In this document: positions 332 through 47,667 of the stretch, in pieces
Layout: each line of letters begins with the position of its first letter
Numbering within the stretch: the first letter of the stretch is position 1
From: an uncultured Gemmatimonadaceae bacterium
GTDB lineage: Bacteria; Gemmatimonadota; Gemmatimonadetes; Gemmatimonadales; GWC2-71-9
NCBI GenBank assembly: GCA_964574295.1
Contig: CAZNLY010000006.1
Location: forward strand, 48,805 to 112,804
Length of the DNA stretch: 64,000 bases
Direction: 5' to 3'
Translations under genes and position numbers: made by a program
Notes under the pieces: generated by a model
Told to the model about the DNA's origin: nothing
The model's database searches: none
Seen by the model: only the letters and a program-made list of their open reading frames with translations

Positions 332-2353
<2,022 letters not shown>

Positions 2354-2394
2354 GGGGAAAAGCTACGGATCGGAGGGGAGGGGCGCAAATATGA

Positions 2395-2537: not shown

Positions 2538-2541
2538 ATTG

Positions 2542-4791: not shown

Positions 4792-4853
4792 CGATCCCGG
4801 GATGGAAGGGTGCGAAAGGGGGACGTTGCAGCACGGGCCGCGTTCACACAAGC

Positions 4854-4884
4854 GGGAGGGGCCCTTCTCCTTTCTCCTTCGTCC
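4854..4884. repeat. partial copy of repeat family 1 (copy D)
   Basis: GGGAGGGGCCCTTCTCCTTTCTCCTTCGTCCC. Its reverse complement contains GAAGGAGAAAGGAGAAGGG, matching the family core. Lies between the amidase stop and the start of the upstream gene. Confidence 0.4.
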
Positions 4885-6873: not shown

Positions 6874-6942
6874 GGCGACAAGCTACCCCCGGGGCGCGAG
6901 GTGCGACAAGCACTCGAACGCTCGTCCGGGCCGCGGAACCGA

Positions 6943-6971
6943 TTGACGCTCCCCGTGGCCCGGCCTAGATT
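6943..6971 (+). promoter_or_regulatory. candidate sigma-70-type promoter for the PP2C/FHA operon
   Basis: TTGACG (6943-6948), 17 nt, TAGATT (6966-6971), in the divergent intergenic region about 70 nt upstream of the PP2C start. Sequence match only. Confidence 0.35.
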
Positions 6972-7042
6972 CCCCGACCCCCTCCCCCCTCGCTCCGGAG
7001 CACCCGTGGCTCGGCGATCCTCCCCCCTCCCTCCCCGAGTCA

Positions 7043-16835: not shown

Positions 16836-17606
16836 CTACTTCGCGGTGAACGCCTCCGACAGCGTCATCGTCACCGCGGCGCCCGGCAGGATGGTGATGT
16901 CCTGGTCGCCGGTCTCGTTGGCCACTGCGGCGCCAGCAGCCGCACCCGCCACGCCCCCGACCACGGTGCCGGTGGTGTTCTTCCCGATGGCCTGGCCGAG
17001 CAGGGCGCCCGCGGCGGCGCCGGCTCCGACCTTCGCCACCGTCCCGCCCGTGATGCCCCGCCCCTTGAGCGTGTAGTCGAGGTGGTCCACGGTCCCGCTG
17101 ATCGGATAGCTGGTGCCGTTGATGGAGACGGAGGTGACCGAGGCCGCGAAGGTCTCCTTCCCTCCCTTGCTCGCCGCCGACTTGAACTGAGTCAGGGTGA
17201 TCGTCACTACTGACCCGGCGGGGATGACCACCCGGCCGTCCGCCGCCTTCACGTCGGCGCCGACGGTGGCCTTCATCGTCCCGCCCGACTTGGTGGTCCG
17301 CGAGCTCACGCTGTCGTTGGCGGCGGCGGCAAAGGTGGTGCCGGCGGCCAGCGACGGCGCCGGCTTGGGCGCCGGCGGCTTGGGCTTGGGCGCCGGTGCC
17401 GGGGCGGGCTTGGGAGCCTGGGCCGGGGGCGGCGTCGGGGTGGCCGCCGGCGCGGTGGCCGTATCGTTCAGGGCGGCCGTCGTGTCCTGCTGGGCCAGCT
17501 GGAGGTCGCGGCTCAGGCTGTCGGCCGTCGCGGCGCCCTTGTCGCCGCCGCCACCACCACAGGCGGCCAGGCCAAGGACACAGAGGGAAGTCAGAAGGGT
17601 GCGCAT
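16836..17606 (-). CDS. lipoprotein with Pro/Ala-rich linker and C-terminal glycine-zipper segment
   Basis: AGGAGA SD then ATG 17606. MRTLLTSLCVLGLAACGG lipobox. C-terminal GGTVAKVGAGAAAGALLGQAIGKNTTGTVVGGVAGAAAGAAVA. Confidence 0.65.
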   Translation of the reverse strand: MRTLLTSLCVLGLAACGGGGGDKGAATADSLSRDLQLAQQDTTAALNDTATAPAATPTPPPAQAPKPAPAPAPKPKPPAPKPAPSLAAGTTFAAAANDSVSSRTTKSGGTMKATVGADVKAADGRVVIPAGSVVTITLTQFKSAASKGGKETFAASVTSVSINGTSYPISGTVDHLDYTLKGRGITGGTVAKVGAGAAAGALLGQAIGKNTTGTVVGGVAGAAAGAAVANETGDQDITILPGAAVTMTLSEAFTAK

Positions 17607-23008: not shown

Positions 23009-23110
23009 AGGCGCGGGACGGGGGGGGATTCAAGCGCCCTTGAAGCCGCCACCGATCCGGCCCACCTTTGGCCAGCACGGTGCTCCTTCACCTATCGCGA
23101 GGCCCGCCGC

Positions 23111-33402: not shown

Positions 33403-34734
33403 TCACTCCCCGAGCCGTTCCGCGACCCACCCCGGCAGCTGCGCCGCCGCGATCCGGTCCTGGTTCATCGCGTCGCGGTGCCGGACGGTCACGGTGTCGT
33501 CCTGCAGCGTCTGCCCGTCCACCGTCACGCAGTACGGGGTGCCCGCCTCGTCCATCCGGCGGTAGCGCCGCCCCACCGCCCCGCTGTCATCGTAGAAGGC
33601 CGGCACCCGGCGCTTGAGGTCGTGGTAGAGCCGGGTGGCGTACTCCGGCATCCCGTCCTTCTTGACGAGGGGGAAGACGCCGGCCTTGATCGGGGCGATG
33701 GTCGGGTGGAAGCCCAGCACCACCCGCGTCTCGCCCTCGACCTCCTCCTCGCGGTAGGCGTCCACCAGGGTGGTGAGCGTCACGCGGTCGGCGCCGGCCG
33801 AGGTTTCCACGATGAAGGGGACGTACCGCTCGTTGGCCGCCTGGTCGAAGTAGTCGAGCTTCTTGCCGGACATCGCCTGGTGGCGCTGGAGGTCGAAGTC
33901 GGTCCGGTTGTGGATGCCCTCGATCTCGTTCCAGCCGAACGGGAACTCGTACTCGATGTCGAACGCGGCCTTGGCGTAGTGGGCCAGCTCACCCGGCCCG
34001 TGCTCGTGCCAGCGGAGCCGGGACGGCGTGAGCCCGATGGACACGTGCCACTCCATTCGCCAGGCCCGCCACCGCTCGAACCACTCCGCGTCGGTGCCCG
34101 GCTTGACGAAGAACTGCATCTCCATCTGCTCGAACTCCCGGGTGCGGAAGATGAAGTTGCCCGGGGTGATCTCGTTGCGGAACGCCTTGCCGATCTGGGC
34201 GATGCCGAACGGCACCTTCTGGCGCGAGCCCTGGAGCACGTTGAGGTAGTTGACGTAGATCCCCTGCGCCGTCTCGGGGCGGAGGTAGACCACCGCCGCC
34301 GATTCCTCGACCGGGCCCATGAAGGTCTTGAACATCAGGTTGAAGAGCCGGGGCTCCGTCAGCTCGCAGGCGGTGTGTTGGCCGGGCCGCTTGCTCGGTT
34401 TCTGGGGGCACTGGGCGTCCTGGAGCTTGTCGGCGCGGAAGCGGGCCTTGCAGGTCTTGCAGTCCACGAGCGGATCGGTGAAGCCCGCCACGTGGCCCGA
34501 CGCCTCCCAGACCTTGGGGTGCATCAGGATGGCGGCGTCCAGCCCCTCGATGTCGTCGCGGGCGTGGACCATGGCGCGCCACCACCGGTCCTTGACGTTC
34601 TTCTTGAGCTCGACCCCCAGCGGGCCGTAGTCCCACACCGACCCGAGCCCCCCGTAGATCTCGGAGGACTGGAACACGAATCCGCGCCGCTTGCAGAGCG
34701 ACACGAGCTTGTCCATGCGGGTGGTGTCGGCCAT
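33403..34734 (-). CDS. glyQS: glycine--tRNA ligase (homodimeric type)
   Basis: ATG 34734. MADTTRMDKLVSLCKRRGFVFQSSEIYGGLGSVWDYGPLGVELKKNV, FRNEITPGNFIFRTREFEQMEMQFF, anticodon-binding C-terminus. Confidence 0.95.
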   Translation of the reverse strand: MADTTRMDKLVSLCKRRGFVFQSSEIYGGLGSVWDYGPLGVELKKNVKDRWWRAMVHARDDIEGLDAAILMHPKVWEASGHVAGFTDPLVDCKTCKARFRADKLQDAQCPQKPSKRPGQHTACELTEPRLFNLMFKTFMGPVEESAAVVYLRPETAQGIYVNYLNVLQGSRQKVPFGIAQIGKAFRNEITPGNFIFRTREFEQMEMQFFVKPGTDAEWFERWRAWRMEWHVSIGLTPSRLRWHEHGPGELAHYAKAAFDIEYEFPFGWNEIEGIHNRTDFDLQRHQAMSGKKLDYFDQAANERYVPFIVETSAGADRVTLTTLVDAYREEEVEGETRVVLGFHPTIAPIKAGVFPLVKKDGMPEYATRLYHDLKRRVPAFYDDSGAVGRRYRRMDEAGTPYCVTVDGQTLQDDTVTVRHRDAMNQDRIAAAQLPGWVAERLGE

Positions 34735-34820
34735 CGAACGGCTCGGGGTGCGGGAAGGGGCGATTGGAGTACGCGGATAATAGACGGGGCCGGGAGGGCC
34801 GACAAGCAACCGAAGCGGGT

Positions 34821-34838
34821 GCAAGCGCTTGCGCGCAA
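34821..34838. promoter_or_regulatory. palindromic upstream site 1 (candidate enhancer-binding-protein site)
   Basis: GCAAGCGCTTGCGCGCAA, i.e. GCAAG-N2-CTTGC-N2-GCAA. Centred about 104 nt upstream of the -24 GG at 34934. Matches the site at 39248 in 17 of 19 positions. Confidence 0.45.
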
Positions 34839-34933: not shown

Positions 34934-34947
34934 GGCACCCGACTTGC
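34934..34947 (+). promoter_or_regulatory. sigma-54 type -24/-12 promoter element, pilin module 1
   Basis: GGCACCCGACTTGC has the GG-N10-GC spacing and the GGCAC...TTGC bases of the TGGCACG-N4-TTGCW consensus. 88 nt upstream of GTG 35035. Identical 14-mer at 39360. Confidence 0.6.
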
Positions 34948-35034: not shown

Positions 35035-35631
35035 GTGAACTGCCCATCTCGAACGCCCCCGGGCCCGCGCGCCGGGTTCACGCTGGTGGAGATGCTGATC
35101 GTGGTGATCATCATCGCGATCACCTCCGCCATCGCGTTCCCCAAGATCAACGTGTCGCGCATCCGGTCGAAGGCGGCCATCACCACCCTCGGCACCACGA
35201 TGCTGGCCATCCAGCGCGACGCCATCGCCAAGCAGCACAACGTCCTCGTGCTGGTGGACTCGGTGAACGCCCGGCTCCGGGTGGCCTACGACTCGACCAA
35301 CGACCTCCGGATCACGACGGGGGAGCGGGTGCGGGCGGTGGACCTGGGCGAGGAGATCGTCTTCGGCCGGCCGTCGGGCGTGCCGGCACGGCCCTTCGGG
35401 ACCAACCCGATCAACTTCGTGCAGCGGGAGCCCACCACCAACCTCCCGGTCATCATCCTCTACCGGAACGGCAGCGCCTCCGAGGCCGGCGGGCTCTACC
35501 TGAGCACCGTCAAGGCCATGGCCGGGCTGCCGGGCCACCAGAACGAGACCTGGGCCATGGAAATGGTCCGGGCCACGGGACGCGCGGAATGGATGCGCTG
35601 GAACGGCACCGGCTGGGTGCGGGGGTTCTGA
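35035..35631 (+). CDS. prepilin-type protein, GspH/FimT/FimU-like pseudopilin (module 1)
   Basis: GAGGA then GTG 35035 (longest ORF starts at GTG 34987). Class III signal ...GPRAG|FTLVEMLIVVIIIAITSAIAFP with Glu+5. 198 aa. The stop shares one nt with the next ATG. Confidence 0.8.
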   Translation: MNCPSRTPPGPRAGFTLVEMLIVVIIIAITSAIAFPKINVSRIRSKAAITTLGTTMLAIQRDAIAKQHNVLVLVDSVNARLRVAYDSTNDLRITTGERVRAVDLGEEIVFGRPSGVPARPFGTNPINFVQREPTTNLPVIILYRNGSASEAGGLYLSTVKAMAGLPGHQNETWAMEMVRATGRAEWMRWNGTGWVRGF

Positions 35632-36029
35632 TGCGGACCAACGAACGCGGCTTCACGCTCATCGAGATGGCCATCGCCCTCACGATCCTGTCGATCGTGC
35701 TCGTGGCCATTCCCTACGCCGGCCTCCGCTTCACCAAGGCCGTCTCCACCAACCGGGTGCGCAACGAGGCGAACGCGATCGCCGACGCGTGGATCGCGCA
35801 GTGCCGCTCGCTGCCCAACTACGCCGCCCTCGACTCCACCAACGGCCGGTGCCGCGGCACGGTGACCGGGCTCGGCACGTACAACTTCACCCGGACCACC
35901 ACCGTGACCGGCGACGCCACCCTTTCCGGCGTGGCCGACTCCCTCAACAACTACAAGCGGATCTCCGTCGTCGTCACCTCGACCTCGCTCGCCTCGCCGG
36001 TCAAGCGGACGGTGACGGTGGCCAAGTGA
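35631..36029 (+). CDS. prepilin-type protein, PilV/GspI-sized minor pilin (module 1)
   Basis: MRTNERG|FTLIEMAIALTILSIVLV, 132 aa. Found as the C-terminal part of track ORF 34764..36029. Confidence 0.8.
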   Translation: MRTNERGFTLIEMAIALTILSIVLVAIPYAGLRFTKAVSTNRVRNEANAIADAWIAQCRSLPNYAALDSTNGRCRGTVTGLGTYNFTRTTTVTGDATLSGVADSLNNYKRISVVVTSTSLASPVKRTVTVAK

Positions 36030-36043
36030 GGAGGGAGCCCCCC

Positions 36044-37225
36044 ATGCGCACCCGCCGCGGCGTGACCCTGGTCGAGATGCTGATCGCCATCACCGTCTTC
36101 ACGATGGTGCTGGCGGCCACCCTCGGGTTCCTCTCCCGCATCACGCGCGGGCTCGACCGGAACGCCAGTGACATGGGCATGCTGCAGAACCTGACCTTCG
36201 CCAGCTCGATCCTGCAGGAGGAGCTGCGGATGGCCGGGGCCAACGTGCCCTTCAAGCAGCCGGTCATCATCTACGCCGGCGCCAACTCCTTCAGCTTCAA
36301 CGCCGACTACGCCTCGAACGTGGACAGCCTGTACGCGGTGTACCTGCTGCCCAACCTGCCGGCCGGGCAGCGCAACGCGATGATCCCGGCCGACCGGATC
36401 GCCATCCCGGGGTCGAGCCCGTCGTTCAGCTACCCCGACTCGACGTACATGGCCGACGGCGGCGCCGCGATGCCGAGCCCCGCCGAGACGATCACCTGGT
36501 TCTTTGCCCTCGACACCAGCACCACGGCGGGCAACGACTACGTCCTCTTCCGGCAGGTCAACGACCAGCCGCCCGAGGTGGCCATCCGCAACGTCATCCA
36601 GACCCCGGGCCGGAACTTCTTCCGCTACTACTACAAGCGGATTCCCGCCTCGGGCACCTCGTCCTCCTCGCTCGATACCGTGCCGACCGCCTGGATGCCG
36701 CTCCGGCACACCCAGGGCGTCCACGGCATGCCGTCGGACACGGCGGCGGCGGCGCGGGTGGACAGCCTGGCCCAGGTGGAGGTGGCCTTCACGGTCACGA
36801 ACGCCCTCACCGGCGCCAACCAGCGGACGCGGGCCATCTCGTTCATCGTGCCGATGCCGAACATGGGCACCAAGAAGGTCACGAGCTGCGGGGACATGCC
36901 CCTCTTCGGGTCGGGCATCACCACCACCTGGCAGATCAACACCGCCGCCTCCCCGCCCGACACCTTCATGCTCATCCGGTGGAACCGCGCCACCGACGAG
37001 ACTGGCGGCGAGTCCGACGTGGTGGCGTACATCATCTGGCGCCGCCTCCTGAGCGAGACGACGTGGGACGAGCCGCTGGCGGCGGTCCCGGCGGGTGCCG
37101 CCAATCCCAGCTTTGCCGACCAGACGGCCAATCCCGGCACCCAGTACACCTACGCCGTGGCGGCCCAGGATTGCACCCCGACGCTGTCGACGATGTCGAC
37201 GGCCTCACCCCCCGCCTCCCCGTGA
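36044..37225 (+). CDS. prepilin-type protein, PilW/GspJ-like, with C-terminal FN3-like domain (module 1)
   Basis: GAGGAGGGA SD then ATG 36044. MRTRRG|VTLVEMLIAITVFTMVLAA. The C-terminal region LIRWNRATDETGGESDVVAYIIWRR...ANPGTQYTYAVAAQD follows the fibronectin type III pattern. Confidence 0.8.
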   Translation: MRTRRGVTLVEMLIAITVFTMVLAATLGFLSRITRGLDRNASDMGMLQNLTFASSILQEELRMAGANVPFKQPVIIYAGANSFSFNADYASNVDSLYAVYLLPNLPAGQRNAMIPADRIAIPGSSPSFSYPDSTYMADGGAAMPSPAETITWFFALDTSTTAGNDYVLFRQVNDQPPEVAIRNVIQTPGRNFFRYYYKRIPASGTSSSSLDTVPTAWMPLRHTQGVHGMPSDTAAAARVDSLAQVEVAFTVTNALTGANQRTRAISFIVPMPNMGTKKVTSCGDMPLFGSGITTTWQINTAASPPDTFMLIRWNRATDETGGESDVVAYIIWRRLLSETTWDEPLAAVPAGAANPSFADQTANPGTQYTYAVAAQDCTPTLSTMSTASPPASP

Positions 37226-37248
37226 GGCGGCCCCGGAGGGCAGGCACC

Positions 37249-39168
37249 ATGTCGTCCACCCACTTCGTCCGGAACCGGCGCGGCGTCGCGCTCATCACCG
37301 TGATGCTGGTGGCGTTCGCCGCGTCGGCGATCGCCCTGGCGGCGGTGATGATGACGCTCAACGCCAACCTCGTGGCCAAGAACACCGAGCGGGTGTCGGT
37401 GGTGGACGCCGCCGCCATCGCCGGGCTGGAGGAGGCGCGGAGCCGGCTCAACGGCACCCGGGGGCTCTACCCGAACAACGGGTACGTCACCCTCGAGAAC
37501 AACGTGCCGGTCAAGGACGCCTTCAACGCCGCCATCCCGACCGTGACGCGGTCCACGTACATCGGCCCCAGCGGCATCACGAGCGGGCAGTACGGCGTGG
37601 TGGGGAGCATCATCACCGTGGCACGGGACAGCTTCGGCAACCGGGTGGTGCGCCGGCTCGAGGTGAACCAGGAGAGCTTCTCGAAGTTCGCCTACTTCAC
37701 GAACGAGGAGACCGACACCACCGGCAGCACCGTCGTGTTCGCCAGCGGCGACCAGCTCCGCGGCCCGGTGCACTCCAACGACCAGATCCGGATCGGTTCC
37801 TCGCCGACCCCGGCGGTGACCTTCTTCGACCAGGTGACCACCGCCAACGCGTCCATCAACAACCAGTCGAATGGGTCGTTCATCAAGCCGCCGCTCCTCA
37901 GCCAGCCGCGCATCCCGATGCCGACGGTGGCGGACCTCAACAAGCTCGACAGCCTGGCCCAGGTGGGCTCCACCCGCTTTGCCGGCTCCACCGCCGGCGA
38001 CGCCGGCGAGGCGCGCACCCGCGTCCACTTCCTGACCATCGACCTGGGCCCGCCCTACGGCGTCCAGGGCTTCTTCATGGTGTACCAGGCCGGCACCCTC
38101 ACCACCGTGGGGCAGCCGGAGGACTTCGTCTCCGCCAGCCTCCCGACCACGTCGGGCACCACCGGGGGCTACCTGGAGCTCTCGCCCAACTGCGGCGACT
38201 ACGGCACCGGCGGCCGCTTCATGCCCGCGTACTATCACGACACGACCACCCAGGCGGCGCACCTGCACGTGGCCGGCAGCACCAACGCCAACAAGATCGC
38301 GCGCCGCGACTCGTCCCTCACCCGGGGCACCAACTCCCGCTGCTTCCTCGGGGGCGACTCCATCCTGACGAAGCCGGCCATCGCCACGGGCGCCAACGCC
38401 ACCTGGCCGACCAACGGGCACCCTGACGGGGGGGCCTGGGTGGCCGCCCCGGGAGGCATCCAGGCGGCGCTCGCGGCGCTGGGCCCCGTCATCACCAACC
38501 GGCCCGACGCCAACTATCTCTTCCCCCTCAGCCGCCAGTGGAACTCGCGGTTCAAGGGGATCGTCTTCGTGGCGGGCAAGGTCATCGTGGACGGCGTCAT
38601 CCACGGCCGGGTGACCGTGGCCGCCACCGGCAACGTGATCTTCGGCGATGACGTCACCTACTATCAGGGCCAGACCCGCGACTGCGCCACCGGCGACATC
38701 GCCGGGTACTTCTCCGGGCAGTCGCTCCTCGTGTCGAACAACACGGTCAACGCGCCGCAGACCCTGAACAACAACAGCTCGCTCTCGACCGCGCCGTCGG
38801 GGACCTTCCGCAGCTACGATGAGACCGCGAACGAGACGATCCTCGGCTTCTTCCTGACCCTCCGGACCTTCGGCGCGGAGGAGAACAACCTCGGCGCCGA
38901 CGACTCGGAGCGCTGCCTCATCGGCGGCACCTTCAGCGCCGGCCGCGGCTGCCTCGTGACGTTCGGCGGGATCATCCAGGAGAACCGCGGCGCCGTCGGC
39001 CTCACCAGCGGCGAGGGATACGTCAAGCGCTACCAGTACGACGCCTGCGGCGCCACCGACCCGCCGCCGTACTACCCGACCACCGGCGTGTTCATCAAGA
39101 ACCGCTTCTACGAGCTCGACCCGACGCGGTTCAACGTGGCCGGCTGGTTCGCCGCCAACCAGAACTAG
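37249..39168 (+). CDS. large PilX_N/GspK-like prepilin-type protein (module 1)
   Basis: ATG 37249. MSSTHFVRNRRG|VALITVMLVAFAASAIALAAV (no Glu+5). 639 aa. Shares the motif F.F.YF..E......G.VHSN..I with the next gene. Confidence 0.75.
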   Translation: MSSTHFVRNRRGVALITVMLVAFAASAIALAAVMMTLNANLVAKNTERVSVVDAAAIAGLEEARSRLNGTRGLYPNNGYVTLENNVPVKDAFNAAIPTVTRSTYIGPSGITSGQYGVVGSIITVARDSFGNRVVRRLEVNQESFSKFAYFTNEETDTTGSTVVFASGDQLRGPVHSNDQIRIGSSPTPAVTFFDQVTTANASINNQSNGSFIKPPLLSQPRIPMPTVADLNKLDSLAQVGSTRFAGSTAGDAGEARTRVHFLTIDLGPPYGVQGFFMVYQAGTLTTVGQPEDFVSASLPTTSGTTGGYLELSPNCGDYGTGGRFMPAYYHDTTTQAAHLHVAGSTNANKIARRDSSLTRGTNSRCFLGGDSILTKPAIATGANATWPTNGHPDGGAWVAAPGGIQAALAALGPVITNRPDANYLFPLSRQWNSRFKGIVFVAGKVIVDGVIHGRVTVAATGNVIFGDDVTYYQGQTRDCATGDIAGYFSGQSLLVSNNTVNAPQTLNNNSSLSTAPSGTFRSYDETANETILGFFLTLRTFGAEENNLGADDSERCLIGGTFSAGRGCLVTFGGIIQENRGAVGLTSGEGYVKRYQYDACGATDPPPYYPTTGVFIKNRFYELDPTRFNVAGWFAANQN

Positions 39169-39190
39169 GCCCAGCAGAACGCGCTACCGA

Positions 39191-39216
39191 CGAGCCCCCG
39201 CCCCCGCGGGGGCTCG
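39191..39216 (+). terminator. GC-rich stem-loop after pilin module 1
   Basis: CGAGCCCCCGC-cccc-GCGGGGGCTCG (perfect 11-bp stem) followed by TTGCGTT, 23 nt after the stop at 39168. Confidence 0.55.
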
Positions 39217-39247
39217 TTGCGTTCGGGGGCTCCGGCGCCCGCGCCCT

Positions 39248-39266
39248 GCAAGGGCTTGCACGCAAG
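39248..39266. promoter_or_regulatory. palindromic upstream site 2 (candidate enhancer-binding-protein site)
   Basis: GCAAGGGCTTGCACGCAAG, i.e. GCAAG-N2-CTTGC-N2-GCAAG. Centred about 103 nt upstream of the -24 GG at 39360. Confidence 0.45.
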
Positions 39267-39359
39267 AGGCGGCACGACCGGGCTCTCTGGCCGAAAAATG
39301 CAGTTCAAGTAATCTGGTAACACCATGTGTGACAACGCTTTAGATAGATCCCAGAACCG

Positions 39360-39373
39360 GGCACCCGACTTGC
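39360..39373 (+). promoter_or_regulatory. sigma-54 type -24/-12 promoter element, pilin module 2
   Basis: GGCACCCGACTTGC, identical to 34934..34947. 85 nt upstream of ATG 39458. Confidence 0.6.
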
Positions 39374-39457
39374 CAATTCTCCCGCGGACGTCCGCCGCCA
39401 CGCCCCCGGCCCCCGGAGCGTACAGCGGTGGACCACGACCCAAGTTCGGAGTGCCCG

Positions 39458-41257
39458 ATGCGCATGCCTGACCAGCAGCACCCCCTCCAGCCCAGCCTGG
39501 CCGACCGGCGCGGGTTTGCGCTCGAGGCCACGCTGATCGTCCTCGTCCTCGTGTCCGTGCTGGTGGCGGCCTCGGTGGCGAGCTACGTGATGATCCAGAA
39601 GTCGGGCAACGTGGACTACCGCGGGACCCGCGTGTCCTACGCCGCCGAGGCGGGGGCCGACGCCGTCATTTCGCAGCTGGCCGCCAACATGACCGACGGC
39701 ATCCTGAGCTCGGCCGACATCGCGTCGATCACCCTGCCCACCCTCAGCGGCTTCACCTTCGCCACGCCGACCGTCACCACCATCGGCGCACCGGTGCCGC
39801 GCACCATCACCTACGGCCCCTTCAGCGGGCTGATGGGCCTCAACCAGCGGATCGACATCGGCATCACCGCCACCGACGGCCTGGGCAACCGCGGCCAGGT
39901 GGTCGTGACCGCCAACGCCCAGTCGATCCCGCTCTTCCAGTTCGGCGTGTTCTACGACGAGGACCTGGAGATCCACAACGGCCAGAACATGGACTTTGCG
40001 GGCTGGGTGCACAGCAACTCGAACATCTACCTGACGCCGGGCGGCTCGGCGGTGACGAGCTTCCACGACCTCATCACCACCCCGGACAGCCTCTTCTGGC
40101 AGCGGAAGGCCTACAGCGAGCGGAACGCCAACGTGCGGATCGACAACGCCTCCGCGGTGGCGCAGACCCTCAACTTCGACAGCCGGAGCAACCCCGGGCA
40201 GTCGTTCGTGACGGCCAGCAATTCCCTCGTCAACGGCCGGGTCATGACCGGCGTGAGCGGCGTCCAGCCCCTCCGCCTGCCGCTCCCGGTGGGCATGCCC
40301 CCGATCGAGCTGATCCGCCCGCGCAACGGGGCCGACGACGCCGACACCCGCGCCGTCAAGTTTGCCTGGAAGGCCACGGCCCACATCACGGTGGACCTGG
40401 CCCAGCTGGCCAACGTCAACACCTGCGCCGGCCTGACGATCATCGGGTCGCCGCTGCCCACCGGGGCCAGCTGCGCCATGTTCACCGGGATCCCGCAGGC
40501 GTTCTGGGACGGGCGCGAGAACATCGGCGCCGACGTCTTCCAGATCGACGTGGGCGCGCTCCAGACCTGGGCGGCCGGCAGCGCGGCGCGCGACTACAGC
40601 ATCATCTACGTCACGTTCACGAACTACAGCGCCACGACGAACACCCGCGACTATCCCGTGGTGCGGATCCGGAACGGCGCCACGCTGCGGAAGCCGATCA
40701 CCATCTCCACCGACCGCCCCCTCTACCTCTGGGGCGACTACAACACCGTCGGCTGGTACCCGGCCTCGTTCATCGCCGACGCCATCATCTTCCAGTCGAG
40801 CGCCTGGACCGACGCCGCGCACCCGCTCACCGGCCACACCGCCGCGGGCGGCGGCACCGACTGGCTCAACCCGGCCCAGAACACCGCCAACAACATGACG
40901 GTGTACGCCGCCATCGCCGCCGGGCACTCGGCCACCCCCTGCGACTGGCAGCGCGCCTGCACGCCGAGCGCCCCGCCCCCGCTCGTCGGCTCGACGAGCA
41001 ACTACGGCGGCGGGCTCGAGAACTTCCCCCGCTTCCTGGAGAACTTCAGCGGGCGCACGGTGACCTACCGCGGCTCCCTGGTGTCGCTCTTCCAGAGCCA
41101 GTACGCCAACCGGCGCCGGTGGAGCTGGACCTCCTACTACGGCGTCCCCACGCGTGACTGGCGCTTCGACCTCCGCTTCCGGGACCCGAACAACCTTCCC
41201 CCGGGCACCCCGGTGGTGGGCAGCGTGGTGCAGACCTCCTTCCGGCCGGTGTTCTAG
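39458..41257 (+). CDS. large PilX_N/GspK-like prepilin-type protein (module 2)
   Basis: ATG 39458 (alternatives GTG 39428, ATG 39464). ...LADRRG|FALEATLIVLVLVSVLVAASVA. 599 aa. IPLFQFGVFYDEDLEIHNGQNMDFAGWVHSNSNIYL motif. C-terminal GGGLENFPRFLENFSGRTVTYRGSLVSLF...RDWRFDLRF. Confidence 0.75.
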   Translation: MRMPDQQHPLQPSLADRRGFALEATLIVLVLVSVLVAASVASYVMIQKSGNVDYRGTRVSYAAEAGADAVISQLAANMTDGILSSADIASITLPTLSGFTFATPTVTTIGAPVPRTITYGPFSGLMGLNQRIDIGITATDGLGNRGQVVVTANAQSIPLFQFGVFYDEDLEIHNGQNMDFAGWVHSNSNIYLTPGGSAVTSFHDLITTPDSLFWQRKAYSERNANVRIDNASAVAQTLNFDSRSNPGQSFVTASNSLVNGRVMTGVSGVQPLRLPLPVGMPPIELIRPRNGADDADTRAVKFAWKATAHITVDLAQLANVNTCAGLTIIGSPLPTGASCAMFTGIPQAFWDGRENIGADVFQIDVGALQTWAAGSAARDYSIIYVTFTNYSATTNTRDYPVVRIRNGATLRKPITISTDRPLYLWGDYNTVGWYPASFIADAIIFQSSAWTDAAHPLTGHTAAGGGTDWLNPAQNTANNMTVYAAIAAGHSATPCDWQRACTPSAPPPLVGSTSNYGGGLENFPRFLENFSGRTVTYRGSLVSLFQSQYANRRRWSWTSYYGVPTRDWRFDLRFRDPNNLPPGTPVVGSVVQTSFRPVF

Positions 41258-41258
41258 G

Positions 41259-41825
41259 ATGCCGGCCATGCGGCACGACGCCCGGGGCTTCACGCTCGCC
41301 GAGATGATGATCGTGATCGTCGTCCTCGGCCTGGCGACGATGATGATGGTGCCGCGGTTCCGCGCCTCGAGCAAGACCAAGGCGCGGATGGCGGCCACCC
41401 AGCTGACCGCGGACCTCGAGCTGGCCCGGGCCAAGGCGATGGCCCGCCGGGCCACCGTCCGCGTGGTGTTCAATACCGCCGCCAACAGCTACACCGGCTA
41501 CCTCGACTTCGACCGCGACGGGGTCATCGGGCAGACGCTGGCCGAGCGGGACTCGCTCAACGCCTTCGGCACCCGGACCCTCCCCAACGGGGCGGTCTTC
41601 GGGCGGGCGGGCCAGGCGGACATCACCGACTTTGCCGGCTCGGGGGGGATCACCTTCCCGACGCCGCAGATCAATTTCGACGGGCGCGGCCTCACCACCC
41701 CCTTCGGCACCCGCGGCGTCGTGTATGTGCAGCGCACCGATGACTCCGCCGCCGTGGCGGCGGTGACGGTGTCGGGTGCGGGGGGCGTCCGGCTGTGGAC
41801 CACCGAGGGAGGGTACTGGCGATGA
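41259..41825 (+). CDS. prepilin-type protein, GspH/FimT/FimU-like pseudopilin (module 2)
   Basis: ATG 2 nt after the upstream TAG. MPAMRHDARG|FTLAEMMIVIVVLGLATMMMVP. 188 aa. The stop overlaps the next ATG (ATGA). Confidence 0.8.
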   Translation: MPAMRHDARGFTLAEMMIVIVVLGLATMMMVPRFRASSKTKARMAATQLTADLELARAKAMARRATVRVVFNTAANSYTGYLDFDRDGVIGQTLAERDSLNAFGTRTLPNGAVFGRAGQADITDFAGSGGITFPTPQINFDGRGLTTPFGTRGVVYVQRTDDSAAVAAVTVSGAGGVRLWTTEGGYWR

Positions 41826-42193
41826 CCCGGCAGCGCGAAGGCGGCTTCACCCTGATCTCGGTGATCATCGCCGTGGTCATCCTCTCGGTCGGCATCATGG
41901 CCCTGGGCAAGACCCAGGGGATGCTGATCCGGGCCCAGGCCACGAACGCGGAGCGGAACGTGGCGCTCGGCATCGCCCGCAACTACGTGGAGGAGGTGCG
42001 GTCGCGCACCGCCGTGCCCGCCTCGGAGCCCTCGGCCCGCGTCGATGCAACTGGCGCCCTCTCAGGCACGGGCGCCTACCGGCGCACCCTCGACGTGGCC
42101 GACCTGGGCAACAACCTCTACCGCGCCACCTGCAACGTGACGTACCCGCGCGGCACCGTGCCCGTGTCCATCGTCACCCTCATCTACCGGTGA
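41822..42193 (+). CDS. prepilin-type protein, PilV/GspI-sized minor pilin (module 2)
   Basis: MTRQREGG|FTLISVIIAVVILSVGIMAL (Ser in place of Glu+5), 123 aa. Confidence 0.75.
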   Translation: MTRQREGGFTLISVIIAVVILSVGIMALGKTQGMLIRAQATNAERNVALGIARNYVEEVRSRTAVPASEPSARVDATGALSGTGAYRRTLDVADLGNNLYRATCNVTYPRGTVPVSIVTLIYR

Positions 42194-42198
42194 CCGCC

Positions 42199-43122
42199 AT
42201 GCGCCTTCACGCCCCCACCGGCCGGGCGGGCTTCACCCTGGTCGAGCTGATGATCGCGATGATCGCCGGCCTGGTGGTCCTGGCCGCGGCCACCGCCGCC
42301 GTGGCCTCCACCTGGCGGGGCCTCTCCGCCGGCCGCATGCGCGAAGGCATCGAACGGAACGCCCGCTTCATCAACGAGGCGCTCCAGCGCGACCTCTCCG
42401 AGACCGGCGTGGACCTGGCCTCCAGCGTCCGCTTCGGGAGCCTCTCGGTGCGGGGCGACACCATCGTCGTCCTGAGCGTGCCCTACACCAACGGTGTGGC
42501 GGCCGCGGCGCACACCTTCCAGTACGGGGGCGCCCCGCTCGCGCCGGGCACCGGCAGCTGCGGCACCTGGTGCGTGGACGTGGACACGGTGGCCTGGGAC
42601 CTCGCGGCGAACGACGTCGCAGTCCTGCAGTCGAGCAACGAGCGGCGCCTGATCCAGGTCACGAACGTGACGCGGAGCGGGGCCATTGCCTCGATCACCT
42701 TCCGGTCCGACACGACGCTCCTGCAGCACGAGGCGGCGTACGCCCGGAACCTCCAGCTGGCCAACAACGGCACCGCCGTGACCCGGATGAAGTTCGTGGC
42801 CTACTGGGTGGACAACGGGCGGCTGATGCGCGCCGAGCGGATGAATCCGGACGGCACGCCGGCGGGAGAACTGATTGCGACGGGGGTGGACAGCATTCGC
42901 GTCCGCCTGGTGTTCAGCGACGGCAGCGAGGCCACCACCGCCAACCCGACGGACGCGAGCGGCAACAACGATTGGGACGACATCCTGGCGGTGCGGGTGT
43001 TCGCCACCCTCCGGTCCGACCCGACCGACCTCCGCCTCAACGGCGGGCAGCCGGTCACGCGGAACTTCGGCTGGTGGTTTGCGCCCCGGAACCTGCGCTA
43101 CGAGAAGAACCGCATCAACTGA
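42199..43122 (+). CDS. prepilin-type protein, PilW/GspJ-like (module 2)
   Basis: MRLHAPTGRAG|FTLVELMIAMIAGLVVLAAATAA, 307 aa. No FN3-like tail. Confidence 0.8.
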   Translation: MRLHAPTGRAGFTLVELMIAMIAGLVVLAAATAAVASTWRGLSAGRMREGIERNARFINEALQRDLSETGVDLASSVRFGSLSVRGDTIVVLSVPYTNGVAAAAHTFQYGGAPLAPGTGSCGTWCVDVDTVAWDLAANDVAVLQSSNERRLIQVTNVTRSGAIASITFRSDTTLLQHEAAYARNLQLANNGTAVTRMKFVAYWVDNGRLMRAERMNPDGTPAGELIATGVDSIRVRLVFSDGSEATTANPTDASGNNDWDDILAVRVFATLRSDPTDLRLNGGQPVTRNFGWWFAPRNLRYEKNRIN

Positions 43123-45590: not shown

Positions 45591-46661
45591 CTAGCGGGCC
45601 TTCTTCCTGCGGTCGCGCGGCTCCGGTTCGGACTCGCCGCGGGCAGCGGCCGCGGCCGTCTCCTCGGTAATCAGTCCTTCCTTGACCAGGTCGGCCAGGC
45701 TCTGCTCGAAGGTCTGCATCCCGTGCTGGTCGCGCCCCAGGGACATCAGCGTGCGGAGCTCGTTCCACCGCGTCGGGTTCTTGATGCAGGCCCGTACCTG
45801 GGGCGTGTTCACCAGGATCTCGATCGCCGCGACGCGCCCCTCCTCGTCGGCGCGGGGCAGGAGCTGCTGGGCCACGATGCCGCGCAGCGCCTCCGCCAGA
45901 CGGACCCGGCCGATGTCCCGCTCCTCCGGGGGGAACATCGCCACCAGGCGCTCGATGGTGGTGGGCACGTCGGCGGTCGGCATGGCGGAAATGACCAGGT
46001 GGCCCGTCTCCGCGGCCTTCACGGCGATGTCGGCGGTCTCCGGGTCGCGCATCTCGCCGATGAGGACCACGTCGGGGTCCTGCCGGAGGGCGGCCCGGAG
46101 CCCGATGGCCATCGACTCGGTATCCACGCCCACCTCGCGCTGGGTCACCGAGCAGTTGAGGTCGCGGTGGAGGAACTCGATCGGGTTCTCGATCGTCACC
46201 ACGTGCTTCTGTTTGGTCCGGTTGATGTGCTCGATGATGGCGGCCACGGTGCTGGTCTTCCCGCTGCCGCTCACGCCGGTCACGAGGAGCAGCCCGCGTT
46301 CCGAGTCGGCCAGGGTCGACACGACCTCCGGCAGGCCGAGGGAGGCCACCGAGGGCACCGCGAACGGGATGACGCGCATCACGATCATGAACGACGACCG
46401 CTGGCGGAGCACGTTCACCCGGAACCGCCCGACGCCGGGCATGCCCCAGGAGCAGTCGAAGTCGCGCAGCTTGTCGAGCTGGGCGCGGTCCTCCTCGCTC
46501 GGGATCAGCTTGTAGGCGATCGCGCGGGTCTGGTCGGGGGTGAGCCGCTGCTTGGTGAGCGGCACCAGCTTGCCGTTGATCCGGGCGCGAAAGACGTCGC
46601 CGGCCTTGATGTGGAGGTCGGAGGCGCCCCGCTCGACGGCGGCCTTGATGATCTTTTCCAT
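45591..46661 (-). CDS. pilT: type IV pilus retraction (twitching motility) ATPase PilT
   Basis: GASDLHIKAG, Walker A GVSGSGKTST, TIENPIEFLH, ALRQDPDVVLIGEMRD, His-box region. Confidence 0.9.
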   Translation of the reverse strand: MEKIIKAAVERGASDLHIKAGDVFRARINGKLVPLTKQRLTPDQTRAIAYKLIPSEEDRAQLDKLRDFDCSWGMPGVGRFRVNVLRQRSSFMIVMRVIPFAVPSVASLGLPEVVSTLADSERGLLLVTGVSGSGKTSTVAAIIEHINRTKQKHVVTIENPIEFLHRDLNCSVTQREVGVDTESMAIGLRAALRQDPDVVLIGEMRDPETADIAVKAAETGHLVISAMPTADVPTTIERLVAMFPPEERDIGRVRLAEALRGIVAQQLLPRADEEGRVAAIEILVNTPQVRACIKNPTRWNELRTLMSLGRDQHGMQTFEQSLADLVKEGLITEETAAAAARGESEPEPRDRRKKAR

Positions 46662-46665
46662 GGTG

Positions 46666-47667
46666 TCAGTCCCCGGCGCCGTGCGCCGCGAGGAATCCCA
46701 TCCGCCCCCGCACCTCCGCCAGCGTCCGCCGCGCCTCCGCCCGCGCCCGCGCCGCCCCGGCGGCCAGGATGGCCCGTACCCCCGTCTCGTCGGCCTTGTG
46801 GACCAGCGCCCGTTCGCGGATCGGGGCCAGGGCCGCGGCCATGTTGTCCGCCAGCACCCGCTTGCAGTCGAGGCATCCCCATTCGGCGCCGCGGCACTTC
46901 CGCGCCACCTCGTCCACCGTGGCCGGCGGCGAGAAGTGCCGGTGCAGCGTGTACACGTTGCAGATGTCGGGGTTGCCCGGGTCCTTCTTGGTCTTCCGCG
47001 CCGGGTCGGTCATGGCCGGGCGGAGCTTCTGCCAGATCTCCTCGGGGGTGTCGAGCACCCCGATCGTGTTGCCGAGGCTCTTCGACATCTTGGCCTGTCC
47101 GTCGAGGCCGAGGATCCGCCGCGCCGGCGTGAGGAGCGACTGCGGCGCCGGGAAGAAGGCCTCCCCCCCGCCGAATTCCGCGTTCCACCGCCGGGCGATG
47201 ACCCGCGCCAGCTCGAGGTGCTGCAGCTGGTCGTCGCCGACGGGCACCTGGTCGGCGCGGTAGAGGAGGATGTCCGCCGCCATCAGGATCGGGTAATTCA
47301 GCAGGCCGGCCGGGACGCTCTCGAACTTCTGCGCCTTATCTTTGTACTGCGTCATTCGCTCGAGCTCGCCGAGCGGCGTGACGGCATTCAGGAGCCACAT
47401 CAGCTCGGCGTGTTCCGCCACGTGCGACTGCACGAAGAGGGTGCACCGGGCCGGATCGACCCCGGCGGCGAGGAGCCCGATGGCCATGTCCAGGGTGCGC
47501 CGTTCCAGCGTGGCCGGGTCATGCTGGCCGGTGATCGCGTGGAGATCCACGATGGCAAAGAAGCACTCATGGCGCTCCTGCAGCGCCACCCAGTTCTGGA
47601 CGGCCCCGAGGAGGTTCCCGATGTGGAGGTCGCCGGAGGGTTGGATGCCGGAGAAGACACGCGCCAT
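46666..47667 (-). CDS. trpS: tryptophan--tRNA ligase
   Basis: FSGIQPSGDLHIGNLLGA (HIGH) and KMSKS motifs. Confidence 0.95.
   Translation of the reverse strand: MARVFSGIQPSGDLHIGNLLGAVQNWVALQERHECFFAIVDLHAITGQHDPATLERRTLDMAIGLLAAGVDPARCTLFVQSHVAEHAELMWLLNAVTPLGELERMTQYKDKAQKFESVPAGLLNYPILMAADILLYRADQVPVGDDQLQHLELARVIARRWNAEFGGGEAFFPAPQSLLTPARRILGLDGQAKMSKSLGNTIGVLDTPEEIWQKLRPAMTDPARKTKKDPGNPDICNVYTLHRHFSPPATVDEVARKCRGAEWGCLDCKRVLADNMAAALAPIRERALVHKADETGVRAILAAGAARARAEARRTLAEVRGRMGFLAAHGAGD

What the first reader, a model, noticed from the sequence alone, without database searches (positions are those of the whole stretch)
35035..43122. Eight consecutive prepilin-type genes forming two paralogous minor-pilin modules without a major pilin, PilY1 or assembly machinery
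Every gene from 35035 to 43122 begins with a class III signal (basic leader, Gly, then a hydrophobic helix FTLVEM/FTLIEM/VTLVEM/FTLAEM/FTLVEL). The order is H-like, V/I-like, W/J-like, large X/K-like. After a terminator and the second promoter, the order is large X/K-like, H-like, V/I-like, W/J-like. The paralogs share only architecture, so the duplication is old. Glu+5 is missing in the two large proteins and in V2, as expected for tip-located subunits. These are two complete priming or tip complexes of the GspHIJK / FimU-PilVWX type. No major pilin, PilY1-like adhesin, secretin, platform protein or assembly ATPase is adjacent. The only pilus motor gene in the window is an orphan pilT 2.5 kb downstream. 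Whether they serve one T4P, a T2SS, or two alternative tips for one fibre cannot be told from sequence.
Basis: partly seen in the sequence, partly recalled or inferred. Interest (0 to 1): 0.7.

Follow-up and report, generated by a model that had tools for sequence, protein, structure and literature searches.

The report
Two minor-pilin cassettes with bulky tip pilins
A soil bacterium of the phylum Gemmatimonadota carries two four-gene sets for the tip of its type IV pili, each with its own very large cap protein, much like systems already described in Thermus and cyanobacteria, so this is a clear but fairly ordinary new example.

Summary
Positions 35035-43122 (+) hold eight tightly packed genes with a prepilin-type N-terminus, and no other such gene occurs in the 64 kb. 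They form two operon-like modules, H1-V1-W1-X1 and X2-H2-V2-W2.

The organism belongs to the Gemmatimonadales. Module 1 was intact wherever its upstream region was held, among the best 80 of at least 550 matching species genomes. Module 2 is a separate cassette. In relatives it lies after module 1, before it, alone in the same GlyRS/PurA-PilT slot, or is absent there.

The two large proteins are not classical PilX or GspK:
- **X1** (DUF4900) has one significant structural match, the Thermus tip pilin ComZ.
- **X2** belongs to a very large family with no Pfam model that shares motifs with cyanobacterial HpsA.
- The two are homologous over their first ~200 residues.

Bulky PilX caps have been proposed to replace PilY1, which would explain why no PilY1 gene is here.

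Both modules are preceded by an identical sigma-54-type -24/-12 element and a shared palindrome, which suggests co-regulation. W1 carries a C-terminal FN3-like domain.

Verdict: two alternative type IVa pilus priming/tip complexes. This is a new member of a known kind, of moderate to low interest.

The parts
34820..34838 (+). Palindromic element TGCAAGCGCTTGCGCGCAA. Candidate binding site for an enhancer-binding protein, 114 nt upstream of the module 1 promoter-like element.
   Evidence: This pattern occurs only twice in the 64 kb, once before each module, against 0.01 expected by chance. It is conserved in the close relatives L005, L006 and L088.
34934..34947 (+). Sigma-54-type -24/-12 element GGCACCCGACTTGC, ending 88 nt before the H1 start codon.
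   Evidence: The identical 14-mer lies before X2. Across relatives, 35 of 74 H1 upstream regions carry such an element with at most 1 mismatch, against 3.4% of control windows.
35035..35631 (+). H1: GspH/FimU-position minor pilin, 198 aa, leader MNCPSRTPPGPRAG|FTLVEM.
   Evidence: N_methyl scores 29.9 bits against a cut-off of 21.2. ComGD and GspH match through the N-terminal region only. Homologues in L087 and L089 give faint to weak GspH hits. A profile of the family matches type IV pilin N-terminal helices in the PDB.
35631..36029 (+). V1: PilV/GspI-position minor pilin, 132 aa, G|FTLIEM.
   Evidence: N_methyl scores 37.5 bits. GspI (2.8e-5) and PilV (1e-3) match below their cut-offs. It is conserved as the second gene of module 1.
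36044..37225 (+). W1: PilW/GspJ-position minor pilin, 393 aa, G|VTLVEM, with a C-terminal FN3-like domain (about residues 300-385).
   Evidence: N_methyl scores 27.3 bits. A family profile matches titin FN3 repeats (7e-12) and an Fn3-like protein (0.011) at profile positions 287-367. A length of about 375-390 aa is conserved across the phylum.
37249..39168 (+). X1: large tip pilin, 639 aa, RRG|VALITVM with no Glu+5, DUF4900, ComZ-like.
   Evidence: PF16241 scores 32.9 bits against a cut-off of 29.4. The AlphaFold2 model has pLDDT 85 and pTM 0.80. The only Foldseek PDB hits below 1e-3 are two chains of ComZ, 6QVI (9e-8 and 1.1e-7, probability 1.0). Six Cys residues are invariant in the family.
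39186..39222 (+). GC-rich hairpin (16-bp stem) just after the X1 stop codon. A likely terminator or attenuator between the modules.
   Evidence: The 92-nt region folds at -60.6 kcal/mol, z = -4.2 against shuffles. It has no T run, so the simple terminator scan missed it.
39247..39265 (+). Second copy of the palindromic element, TGCAAGGGCTTGCACGCAA.
39360..39373 (+). Second sigma-54-type element GGCACCCGACTTGC, ending 85 nt before the X2 start codon.
   Evidence: Six of 8 X2 upstream regions in relatives have such an element with at most 1 mismatch.
39458..41257 (+). X2: large tip pilin, 599 aa, RRG|FALEATL with an invariant Glu at +4, HpsA-related.
   Evidence: PilX_N is weak (17.6 bits against a cut-off of 25.5). 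All 45 family members hit NCBIfam HpsA (best 3.6e-15), far below the equivalog cut-off. The AlphaFold2 model has pLDDT 83. It is homologous to X1 over about 200 residues. The family comprises 3980 clusters at 50% identity.
41259..41825 (+). H2: GspH/FimU-type minor pilin, 188 aa, G|FTLAEM.
   Evidence: PF12019 GspH scores 32.3 bits against a cut-off of 21, and N_methyl scores 28.7 bits.
41822..42193 (+). V2: PilV/GspI-type minor pilin, 123 aa, G|FTLISV with Ser at +5.
   Evidence: PilV TIGR02523 gives 4e-10 (40.3 bits against a cut-off of 52.2). Ser+5 is conserved in every module 2 copy captured by the signal scan (L005, L006, L011, L013, L024, L051).
42199..43122 (+). W2: PilW/GspJ-type minor pilin, 307 aa, G|FTLVEL.
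   Evidence: N_methyl scores 24.6 bits. PilW scores 21.5 bits against a cut-off of 26, and T2SSJ is weak.
45591..46661 (-). pilT: type IVa pilus retraction ATPase. Context only, not part of either module.
   Evidence: TIGR01420 scores 412 bits against a cut-off of 319. It is conserved next to PurA and the M28 peptidase in related genomes.

Best explanation
The interval encodes two alternative core minor-pilin sets for a type IVa pilus machine that is encoded elsewhere in the genome.

**Proposed mechanism**
1. A prepilin peptidase cleaves each protein after the conserved Gly. This step is inferred; the enzyme is not in the window.
2. In the inner membrane the four subunits of one set bundle through their N-terminal helices. 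The large X subunit sits on top, V and W sit beneath it, and H links the complex to the major pilin, as in GspHIJK and FimU-PilVWX.
3. This complex primes fibre polymerisation and ends up at the pilus tip.
4. The bulky beta-rich body of X1 (ComZ-like) or X2 (HpsA-related) cannot fit inside a fibre. It therefore caps the tip and acts as the plug and adhesin or receptor that PilY1 provides in Proteobacteria.
5. One machine can thus build pili with two different tips.
6. Each module is its own transcription unit, driven by a sigma-54-type promoter with the same upstream palindrome. One enhancer-binding regulator probably switches both on.
7. PilT retracts the fibres.

**Shown:** gene anatomy, family and fold relationships, conservation, cassette behaviour and the sequence motifs.

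**Inferred:** processing, complex assembly, tip location, replacement of PilY1, sigma-54 dependence, and any division of labour between the two sets (for example DNA uptake versus adhesion or motility).
For: - There are eight prepilin-type genes and no others in the 64 kb.
- X1's only significant PDB fold match is ComZ, 6QVI (E 9e-8). ComZ is a tip pilin with a beta-solenoid inserted before the last strand of the pilin sheet, and it binds DNA and PilA2 (PMC6561018).
- The strand order in the X1 and X2 models is long helix, four strands, about 420-460 residues of mostly short strands, then one final strand. This fits the ComZ topology.
- All 45 X2 relatives and 10 of 10 distant relatives match HpsA motifs. 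None of the 47 X1 relatives does.
- X1 and X2 are homologous over their N-terminal ~200 residues.
- Cyanobacteria have the same arrangement: two core minor-pilin sets (Com-type, and EPS-type with HpsA-like PilX) that prime two distinct pili, with the PilX solenoid proposed as the substitute for PilY1 (bioRxiv 10.64898/2026.02.12.705559).
- Module 1 is intact in every one of the 80 species loci that holds its upstream region.
- In L040, two PilA-like genes with a C-terminal Cys pair lie directly upstream of module 1.
- PilT is a bona fide T4aP ATPase.
- No PilY1-family gene appears in the five annotated neighbourhoods.
- An identical sigma-54-type 14-mer and a shared palindrome precede both modules. 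The sigma-54-type element is enriched upstream of both modules across the phylum.
- All eight genes are under purifying selection, and the X genes are the most constrained in each module.
Against: - No major pilin, PilB, PilC, PilD, PilMNOPQ or secretin gene is in the window, so the link to a T4aP machine rests on PilT and on relatives.
- The match between X1 and ComZ is at fold level only. TM-scores are 0.23-0.29, and a profile search of PDB sequences found nothing.
- X2 has no significant structural match in the PDB or BFVD, so calling its body a solenoid is not demonstrated.
- X2's HpsA score is 43 bits against a cut-off of 400.
- The V and W assignments rest on sub-threshold matches plus position and size.
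- A shared regulatory design argues, if anything, against reciprocal switching between the two sets.
- Some Gemmatimonadota have PilY1 homologues (PMC13190605), so a PilY1 elsewhere in this genome is not excluded.
Confidence: 0.6

Rival explanations
1. One or both modules are GspH-I-J-K pseudopilus tip complexes of a type II secretion system, not of a pilus.
For: The H-I-J-K gene order is the T2SS order. H2 passes the GspH Pfam model. GspH, GspI, GspJ and GspK models give weak hits. The pilin domain of ComZ is closest in fold to GspK (PMC6561018).
Against: No gspG or other gsp gene is in the window or in five annotated neighbourhoods. No T2SSK domain was found. X1 and X2 have a 420-460-residue beta-rich insertion, not the alpha-helical GspK domain. 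PilA-like genes with a disulfide D-region adjoin module 1 in L040. PilT is present.
Confidence: 0.12
2. The two sets are functionally redundant priming complexes, like minor-pilin clusters 1 and 3 of Myxococcus xanthus. Either one suffices for the same pilus, with no specialisation.
For: Both sets have the same promoter-like element and upstream palindrome, which suggests co-expression. Many relatives carry only module 1 at this locus, and one carries only module 2. Redundant sets are documented in M. xanthus (PMC7541494).
Against: X1 and X2 differ completely beyond residue ~200 and belong to two deeply separated families, each conserved across many lineages. In cyanobacteria the corresponding lineages have distinct functions (bioRxiv 10.64898/2026.02.12.705559). 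V2 and X2 have their own conserved N-terminal peculiarities.
Confidence: 0.2
3. Module 2 serves a pilus-like polysaccharide secretion apparatus of the Hps type, not an extended pilus.
For: X2 shares motifs with HpsA. The X-first gene order resembles hpsA followed by pseudopilin genes; that order is from my own recall, not checked here. V1 and V2 hit HpsB weakly.
Against: No glycosyltransferase or polysaccharide export gene adjoins module 2 in the window or in L087, L088 or L089. The HpsA match covers only two short motifs. In cyanobacteria the EPS-type set is now reported to prime a genuine motility pilus (bioRxiv 10.64898/2026.02.12.705559).
Confidence: 0.08

Closest known systems
Thermus thermophilus competence pilin locus (pilA1-pilA2-pilA3 with comZ; ComZ structure 6QVI)
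   Same: Three small pseudopilin-like minor pilins accompany one very large pilin-like protein that lacks typical pilin sequence features. That protein carries a big beta-rich insertion in the pilin fold and is argued to sit at the tip. X1's only significant PDB fold match is ComZ (PMC6561018).
   Different: There is no detectable sequence similarity and the global superposition is poor (TM 0.23-0.29). No major pilin gene is adjacent here. DNA binding is untested. W1 carries an FN3-like domain. A second, different set lies next to the first.
Cyanobacterial Com-type and EPS-type core minor-pilin sets (Schuergers et al., bioRxiv 10.64898/2026.02.12.705559)
   Same: One genome holds two four-member sets (FimT, PilV, PilW, PilX). 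Each has its own bulky PilX lineage, one ComZ-like and one HpsA-like. There is no PilY1. The sets are often encoded as single loci, and some species have one set, both, or several copies.
   Different: The phylum is different. X2 is far shorter than HpsA (599 residues against a profile of about 1500) and shares only two motifs with it. Here the two sets are adjacent, carry the same promoter-like and upstream elements, and behave as cassettes in one conserved chromosomal slot. Functions are untested.
Pseudomonas aeruginosa fimU-pilVWXY1E and Myxococcus xanthus minor-pilin/PilY1 clusters (PMC5979040, PMC7541494)
   Same: Core minor pilins in H-V-W-X order prime T4aP assembly and form the tip. 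M. xanthus has several paralogous clusters.
   Different: Those clusters each include a PilY1 adhesin and a small PilX. Here there is no PilY1, and the X proteins have about 600 residues.
Type II secretion GspH-GspI-GspJ-GspK tip complex
   Same: The gene order is the same. The top subunit lacks Glu5. H2 is a member of the GspH family.
   Different: There are no gspG or gsp machinery genes, no GspK alpha-domain, and the X proteins are much larger.

Membership tests
Type IV pilin / pseudopilin superfamily | Class III signal: a short basic leader, Gly at -1 and a hydrophobic N-terminal helix (Pfam N_methyl / TIGR02532) | tested here: met
   N_methyl is above its cut-off in H1, V1, W1, H2, V2 and W2. 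X1 and X2 have RRG followed by a predicted helix of about 60 residues but do not reach the model.
Type IV pilin / pseudopilin superfamily | Processing by a prepilin peptidase (PilD/GspO) | not testable with these tools
   No peptidase A24 gene is in the window, and the rest of the genome is not available.
GspH / FimU-FimT family | GspH domain (PF12019) above the Pfam gathering score | tested here: met
   H2 scores 32.3 bits against a cut-off of 21. H1 shows only N-terminal GspH and ComGD matches, and H1 homologues give faint to weak GspH hits, so H1 is inconclusive.
PilV / GspI family | TIGR02523 or TIGR01707 above the curated cut-off | tested here: inconclusive
   V2 scores 40.3 bits on PilV against a cut-off of 52.2. 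V1 scores 24.6 bits on GspI against 44.35. Size and position fit.
PilW / GspJ family | PF16074 PilW or PF11612 T2SSJ above the cut-off | tested here: inconclusive
   W2 scores 21.5 bits on PilW against 26 and 15.3 bits on T2SSJ against 28. W1 shows only N-terminal matches.
GspK (T2SS tip pseudopilin) | GspK family model (NF037980), which includes the alpha-helical insertion domain | tested here: not met
   Only weak matches to the N-terminal helix were found (12.8 bits against a cut-off of 130; 2 of 47 X1 relatives). The models show beta-rich insertions.
ComZ-like tip pilins | A pilin fold with a large beta-rich domain inserted before the last strand of the sheet | tested here: met
   For X1, Foldseek gives E 9e-8 and probability 1.0 to 6QVI, with no other entry below 0.7, and the strand order fits. 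Caveats: TM-scores are 0.23-0.29, and I had no coordinates to inspect. X2 was not matched.
ComZ-like tip pilins | DNA binding and binding to the neighbouring PilA2-type pilin | not testable with these tools
   This requires biochemistry.
HpsA (NCBIfam NF038301, equivalog) | Whole-protein score of at least 400 bits | tested here: not met
   X2 scores 43 bits. All 45 relatives match, but only at profile positions of about 1310-1400, and distant relatives also match at 285-325. X2 is related to HpsA but is not an HpsA.
PilY1-containing minor-pilin clusters | A PilY1/PilC gene within the cluster | tested here: not met
   No such gene is in the window or in five annotated related neighbourhoods.
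Sigma-54-dependent promoters | GG and GC dinucleotides spaced as in TGGCAC-N5-TTGCW, upstream of the operon | tested here: met
   GGCACCCGACTTGC lies before both modules. The element is enriched upstream of H1 and X2 in relatives, 47% and 75% against 3.4% in controls. Activity, rpoN and the activator are not testable here.
Type IVa pilus system | PilT/PilU retraction ATPase in the genome | tested here: met
   TIGR01420 scores 412 bits against a cut-off of 319.
Type IVa pilus system | Major pilin, PilB, PilC, PilMNOP and the PilQ secretin | not testable with these tools
   None is in the 64 kb. PilA-like genes adjoin module 1 in the relative L040.

The most novel reading that the evidence does not exclude
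Two ancient lineages of bulky PilX caps, ComZ/DUF4900-like and HpsA-like, may be a general PilY1-independent way for non-proteobacterial phyla to arm one type IVa machine with two specialised tips. The phyla in question are Gemmatimonadota, Acidobacteriota, Cyanobacteria and Deinococcota. In Gemmatimonadota these caps would travel as portable four-gene cassettes into a fixed chromosomal slot, under the control of a common sigma-54 activator.
Probability: 0.35. Interest if true: 0.55.

Novelty: new member of a known kind. Interest (0 to 1): 0.35.

Why it matters
Nothing on type IV pili of Gemmatimonadota turned up in the searchable literature. These bacteria are abundant in soil and largely uncultured.

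The locus shows that a scheme just proposed for cyanobacteria also exists in an unrelated heterotrophic phylum. That scheme has two core minor-pilin sets, each with its own bulky cap, and no PilY1. Here the two sets lie side by side, which makes them easy to compare.

The work also gives a first handle on two large uncharacterised protein families. DUF4900 can now be linked to ComZ. The X2 family has about 4000 clusters at 50% identity and no Pfam model.

Practically, this improves annotation: most of these genes carry no name or "hypothetical protein" in the source databases. It also gives testable predictions about DNA uptake, adhesion and sigma-54 control.

Tried and rejected
- **PDB sequence searches.** Profile searches with X1 and X2 found nothing relevant.
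- **Fold searches for X2.** Foldseek against the PDB and the viral BFVD library gave no hit below E 0.09, so I do not claim a solenoid for X2 from structure.
- **Terminator scan.** The simple scan found none in the interval. The hairpin after X1 lacks a T run and was found by reading and folding the sequence.
- **W1 C-terminus.** Pfam gave nothing on it. A family profile against the PDB was needed to show FN3 similarity.
- **Polysaccharide context for module 2.** I looked for polysaccharide genes next to module 2 in three long contigs to test an Hps-like context and found none.
- **Literature.** Three searches for type IV pili or minor pilins in Gemmatimonadota returned no dedicated study. The only relevant statement is that some PilY1.3-like homologues occur in the phylum.
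- **Verru_Chthon four-gene cassette.** I considered it (TIGR02596, TIGR02598 and TIGR02599 gave weak hits). Only the N-terminal helices match, and no cassette protein A match was seen.
- **Upstream palindrome.** It is not conserved across the phylum, only in close relatives.
- **Antisense ORFs.** The minus-strand ORFs with high GC3 inside the interval are treated as shadow ORFs of a 70% GC genome.

Full report
**1. The observation**

The window has about 71% GC. Between 35035 and 43122 on the + strand lie eight closely packed ORFs:

| Gene | Coordinates | Length (aa) |
|---|---|---|
| H1 | 35035-35631 | 198 |
| V1 | 35631-36029 | 132 |
| W1 | 36044-37225 | 393 |
| X1 | 37249-39168 | 639 |
| X2 | 39458-41257 | 599 |
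| H2 | 41259-41825 | 188 |
| V2 | 41822-42193 | 123 |
| W2 | 42199-43122 | 307 |

Independent gene calls on identical metagenomic contigs agree apart from the start chosen for V1 and H2.

Within each group of four, the genes overlap or lie 1-23 nt apart. A 290-nt gap separates the two groups.

A six-frame scan for Gly plus a hydrophobic helix after a basic leader finds seven such ORFs in the whole 64 kb, all of them here. X2 (RRG|FALEATL) is the eighth.

Profile scans gave the following:
- Pfam N_methyl is above its cut-off in six genes.
- GspH is above its cut-off in H2.
- PilV, GspI, PilW, T2SSJ, PilX_N and GspK give weak, sub-threshold matches in the expected genes.

The rest of the window encodes unrelated genes:
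- **Upstream:** a Ser/Thr kinase, PP2C and FHA proteins, an amidase, GH3, GGT, an ABC transporter, Fur, PriA and GlyRS.
- **Downstream:** PurA, an M28 peptidase, PilT, TrpRS, Map, Adk, SecY and ribosomal proteins.

No other pilus or secretion gene was found. PilT is a genuine PilT/PilU-family ATPase (412 bits against a cut-off of 319).

**2. Organism and conservation**

Homologues of X1 and X2 come from Gemmatimonadales and Gemmatimonadota MAGs. A scan of one genome per species found at least 550 species encoding an X1 relative. The best 80 loci were fetched.

Module 1 is intact in every locus that holds its upstream region. The sizes are nearly constant: H about 181 aa, V about 121, W about 380 and X 565-650. 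Module 1 is therefore a phylum-wide unit.

Module 2 always appears as X2-H2-V2-W2 (at contig ends only part of it is held), but its position varies:
- after module 1: the window, L005 and L006;
- before module 1: L011, L013, L018, L024, L087 and L089;
- after two X1 copies: L051;
- alone in the slot: L088;
- absent from the locus: most genomes.

Twenty-nine loci lie in the same chromosomal slot, GlyRS | ... | PurA, M28 peptidase, PilT. Twenty-four loci with full flanks lie elsewhere. The pilT adjacency therefore reflects housekeeping synteny.

Two further variations were seen:
- tandem duplicates of module 1 (L014, L019);
- a third, smaller module type with H about 143 aa, V about 120, W about 285 and X about 360 (L023, L025, L031/L085, L040, L055, L059, L073).

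In L040, two PilA-like genes lie directly upstream of module 1. They have the canonical FTLIELL N-terminus and a C-terminal Cys pair. This ties module 1 to a pilus, not a secreton.

All eight window genes are under purifying selection against L005. dN/dS is 0.19-0.39, compared with 0.09-0.11 for PurA and PilT, and the X genes are the most constrained in each module.

**3. The large proteins**

AlphaFold2 models built on alignments of 45-47 sequences are confident: pLDDT 85 and pTM 0.80 for X1, pLDDT 83 and pTM 0.78 for X2.

Both models share one layout:
1. an N-terminal helix of about 60 residues;
2. four long strands;
3. about 420-460 residues made mostly of short strands;
4. one final strand.

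For X1, the only PDB entry matched below E = 0.7 is ComZ of Thermus thermophilus (6QVI, E 9e-8 and 1.1e-7 for two chains, probability 1.0). Weak hits to the Thermus pilin PilA2 follow. TM-scores are low (0.23-0.29) and there is no sequence-level match, so this is a fold-level relationship.

ComZ is a GspK-like pilin with a beta-solenoid of about 380 residues inserted between the penultimate and last strands. It is argued to sit at the pilus tip, and it binds DNA and the neighbouring pilin PilA2 (PMC6561018).

X2 has no significant structural match in the PDB or BFVD. However, all 45 aligned relatives hit the NCBIfam HpsA model (best 3.6e-15), whereas none of 47 X1 relatives does.

An exhaustive profile search finds 3980 clusters (at 50% identity) related to X2, among them Acidobacteriota proteins. 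Ten distant, longer members all match HpsA, at two motifs: profile positions 285-325 and about 1330-1400.

X2 scores 43 bits against the HpsA equivalog cut-off of 400. It is an HpsA relative, not an HpsA.

X1 and X2 profiles align over about 200 N-terminal residues: the helix, the pilin sheet and the DUF4900 region (hhalign probability 95.8%, E 8e-9). They are ancient paralogues. The other pairs share mainly the N-terminal helix, except V1 and V2, which align over about 89 residues.

**4. Other anatomy**

*W1 domain.* The C-terminal ~90 residues of W1 are FN3-like. A family profile matches titin FN3 repeats at 7e-12 and an Fn3-like protein at 0.011. W1 is therefore a modular pilin, and this feature is conserved across the phylum.

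*N-terminal peculiarities of module 2.* X2 has an invariant Glu at +4. V2 has a conserved Ser at +5 in every module 2 copy captured by the scan. I cannot explain this pair of features.

*Regulatory elements.* Each module is preceded by the identical 14-mer GGCACCCGACTTGC, at 34934 and at 39360. This fits the sigma-54 -24/-12 consensus. About 114 nt further upstream of each lies the palindrome TGCAAG-N2-CTTGC[AG]CGCAA, at 34820 and 39247, with 0.01 occurrences expected by chance.

Across relatives, 35 of 74 H1 upstream regions and 6 of 8 X2 upstream regions carry a GG/GC element with at most one mismatch. Control windows do so in 3.4% of cases. The palindrome is conserved only in close relatives.

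*Hairpin.* A 16-bp GC hairpin follows the X1 stop codon (z = -4.2 for the region).

**5. Interpretation**

The best reading is two alternative core minor-pilin (priming/tip) sets for one type IVa pilus machine encoded elsewhere. X1 or X2 would form the bulky cap.

This matches the Thermus comZ locus. It matches even more closely the scheme recently reported for cyanobacteria, which includes (bioRxiv 10.64898/2026.02.12.705559):
- two conserved FimT-PilV-PilW-PilX sets, Com-type and EPS-type, the latter with an HpsA-like PilX;
- priming of two morphologically and functionally distinct pili;
- a PilX solenoid proposed to replace PilY1.

By analogy, module 1 is the ComZ-like set and module 2 the HpsA-related set. 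The missing PilY1 is then expected, not puzzling.

What is not shown:
- processing of the eight proteins;
- assembly of the complexes and their tip location;
- which function each set serves;
- sigma-54 dependence.

The shared promoter design suggests co-expression, which differs from the divergent regulation reported for the cyanobacterial sets.

**6. Rival explanations**

- **T2SS pseudopilus tips.** This fits the gene order and the GspH hit. Against it are the absence of gspG and gsp genes, the non-GspK bodies of X1 and X2, the adjacent PilA-like genes in L040, and PilT. Confidence 0.12.
- **Redundant sets, as in Myxococcus.** This is possible, but the X proteins belong to deeply separated, widely conserved families. 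Confidence 0.2.
- **An Hps-like polysaccharide secretion role for module 2.** No glycosyltransferase context supports it. Confidence 0.08.

**7. Novelty and score**

No paper in the searchable library treats type IV pili of Gemmatimonadota. One mentions PilY1.3-like homologues in the phylum.

The kind of system is known. What is new here:
- the phylum;
- the side-by-side cassettes in a fixed slot, with variable order;
- the FN3-bearing PilW;
- the shared sigma-54-type control elements;
- the link between DUF4900 and ComZ, and between the large X2 family, which has no Pfam model, and HpsA.

I rate it a new member of a known kind, with interest 0.35.

Noticed in passing
window 34820-34838, 34934-34947, 39247-39265, 39360-39373: The regulatory design is duplicated. 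An identical sigma-54-type -24/-12 14-mer (GGCACCCGACTTGC) and a palindrome about 114 nt upstream of it precede both modules. The -24/-12 element is enriched upstream of these modules across the phylum.
   Followed up: yes
window 36044-37225 (W1, C-terminal ~90 residues): The PilW-position pilin carries an FN3-like C-terminal domain that Pfam misses. The W length is conserved (about 375-390 aa) across the fetched loci, so this is a modular minor pilin.
   Followed up: partly
window 39458-41257 (X2) and 41822-42193 (V2): X2 has an invariant Glu at +4, not +5. V2 has a conserved Ser at +5 in every module 2 copy captured by the scan. The rule that only the top subunit lacks Glu5 does not explain this pair.
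   Followed up: partly
L023, L025, L031/L085 (3637-6493), L040, L055, L059, L073: A third, smaller minor-pilin module type occurs next to module 1 in several Gemmatimonadota. Its sizes are H about 143 aa, V about 120, W about 285 and X about 360. Its X protein matches no Pfam or NCBIfam model.
   Followed up: partly
L040 6585-7452; L055 about 4082-5120: Tandem small PilA-like genes lie just upstream of module 1 in some relatives. They have the FTLIELL N-terminus, and the L040 pair has a C-terminal Cys pair. In L055 a sigma-54-type element (4681-4694) precedes the second gene.
   Followed up: partly
L014 (52-8767), L019 (7817-16527), L051, L072: Some species have tandem duplications: whole module 1 in L014 and L019 (second copy 32-39% identical to the window's proteins), or X1 alone in L051 and L072.
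   Followed up: no
window 33403-34824 (-) to 46666-47667 (-): A conserved slot, GlyRS | minor-pilin cassettes | PurA, M28 peptidase, PilT, TrpRS, recurs in 29 related loci with variable cassette content. It looks like an integration hotspot, but no mobility genes are visible.
   Followed up: partly
window 332-9558: A signalling cluster: a Ser/Thr kinase with an N-terminal zinc ribbon and a TonB_C-like C-terminus, a TPR/GWxTD protein, an amidase_3 protein, a PP2C phosphatase and an FHA-trypsin-like protein.
   Followed up: no
window 17329-17342 (-): This is the third and only other exact GGCAC-N5-TTGC match in the window. It lies on the minus strand, about 500 nt upstream of the DUF885 gene start. 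Its significance is unknown.
   Followed up: no
window 23030-24481 (-): A 483-aa ORF with no Pfam match lies between the ArgZ-like gene and PriA.
   Followed up: no
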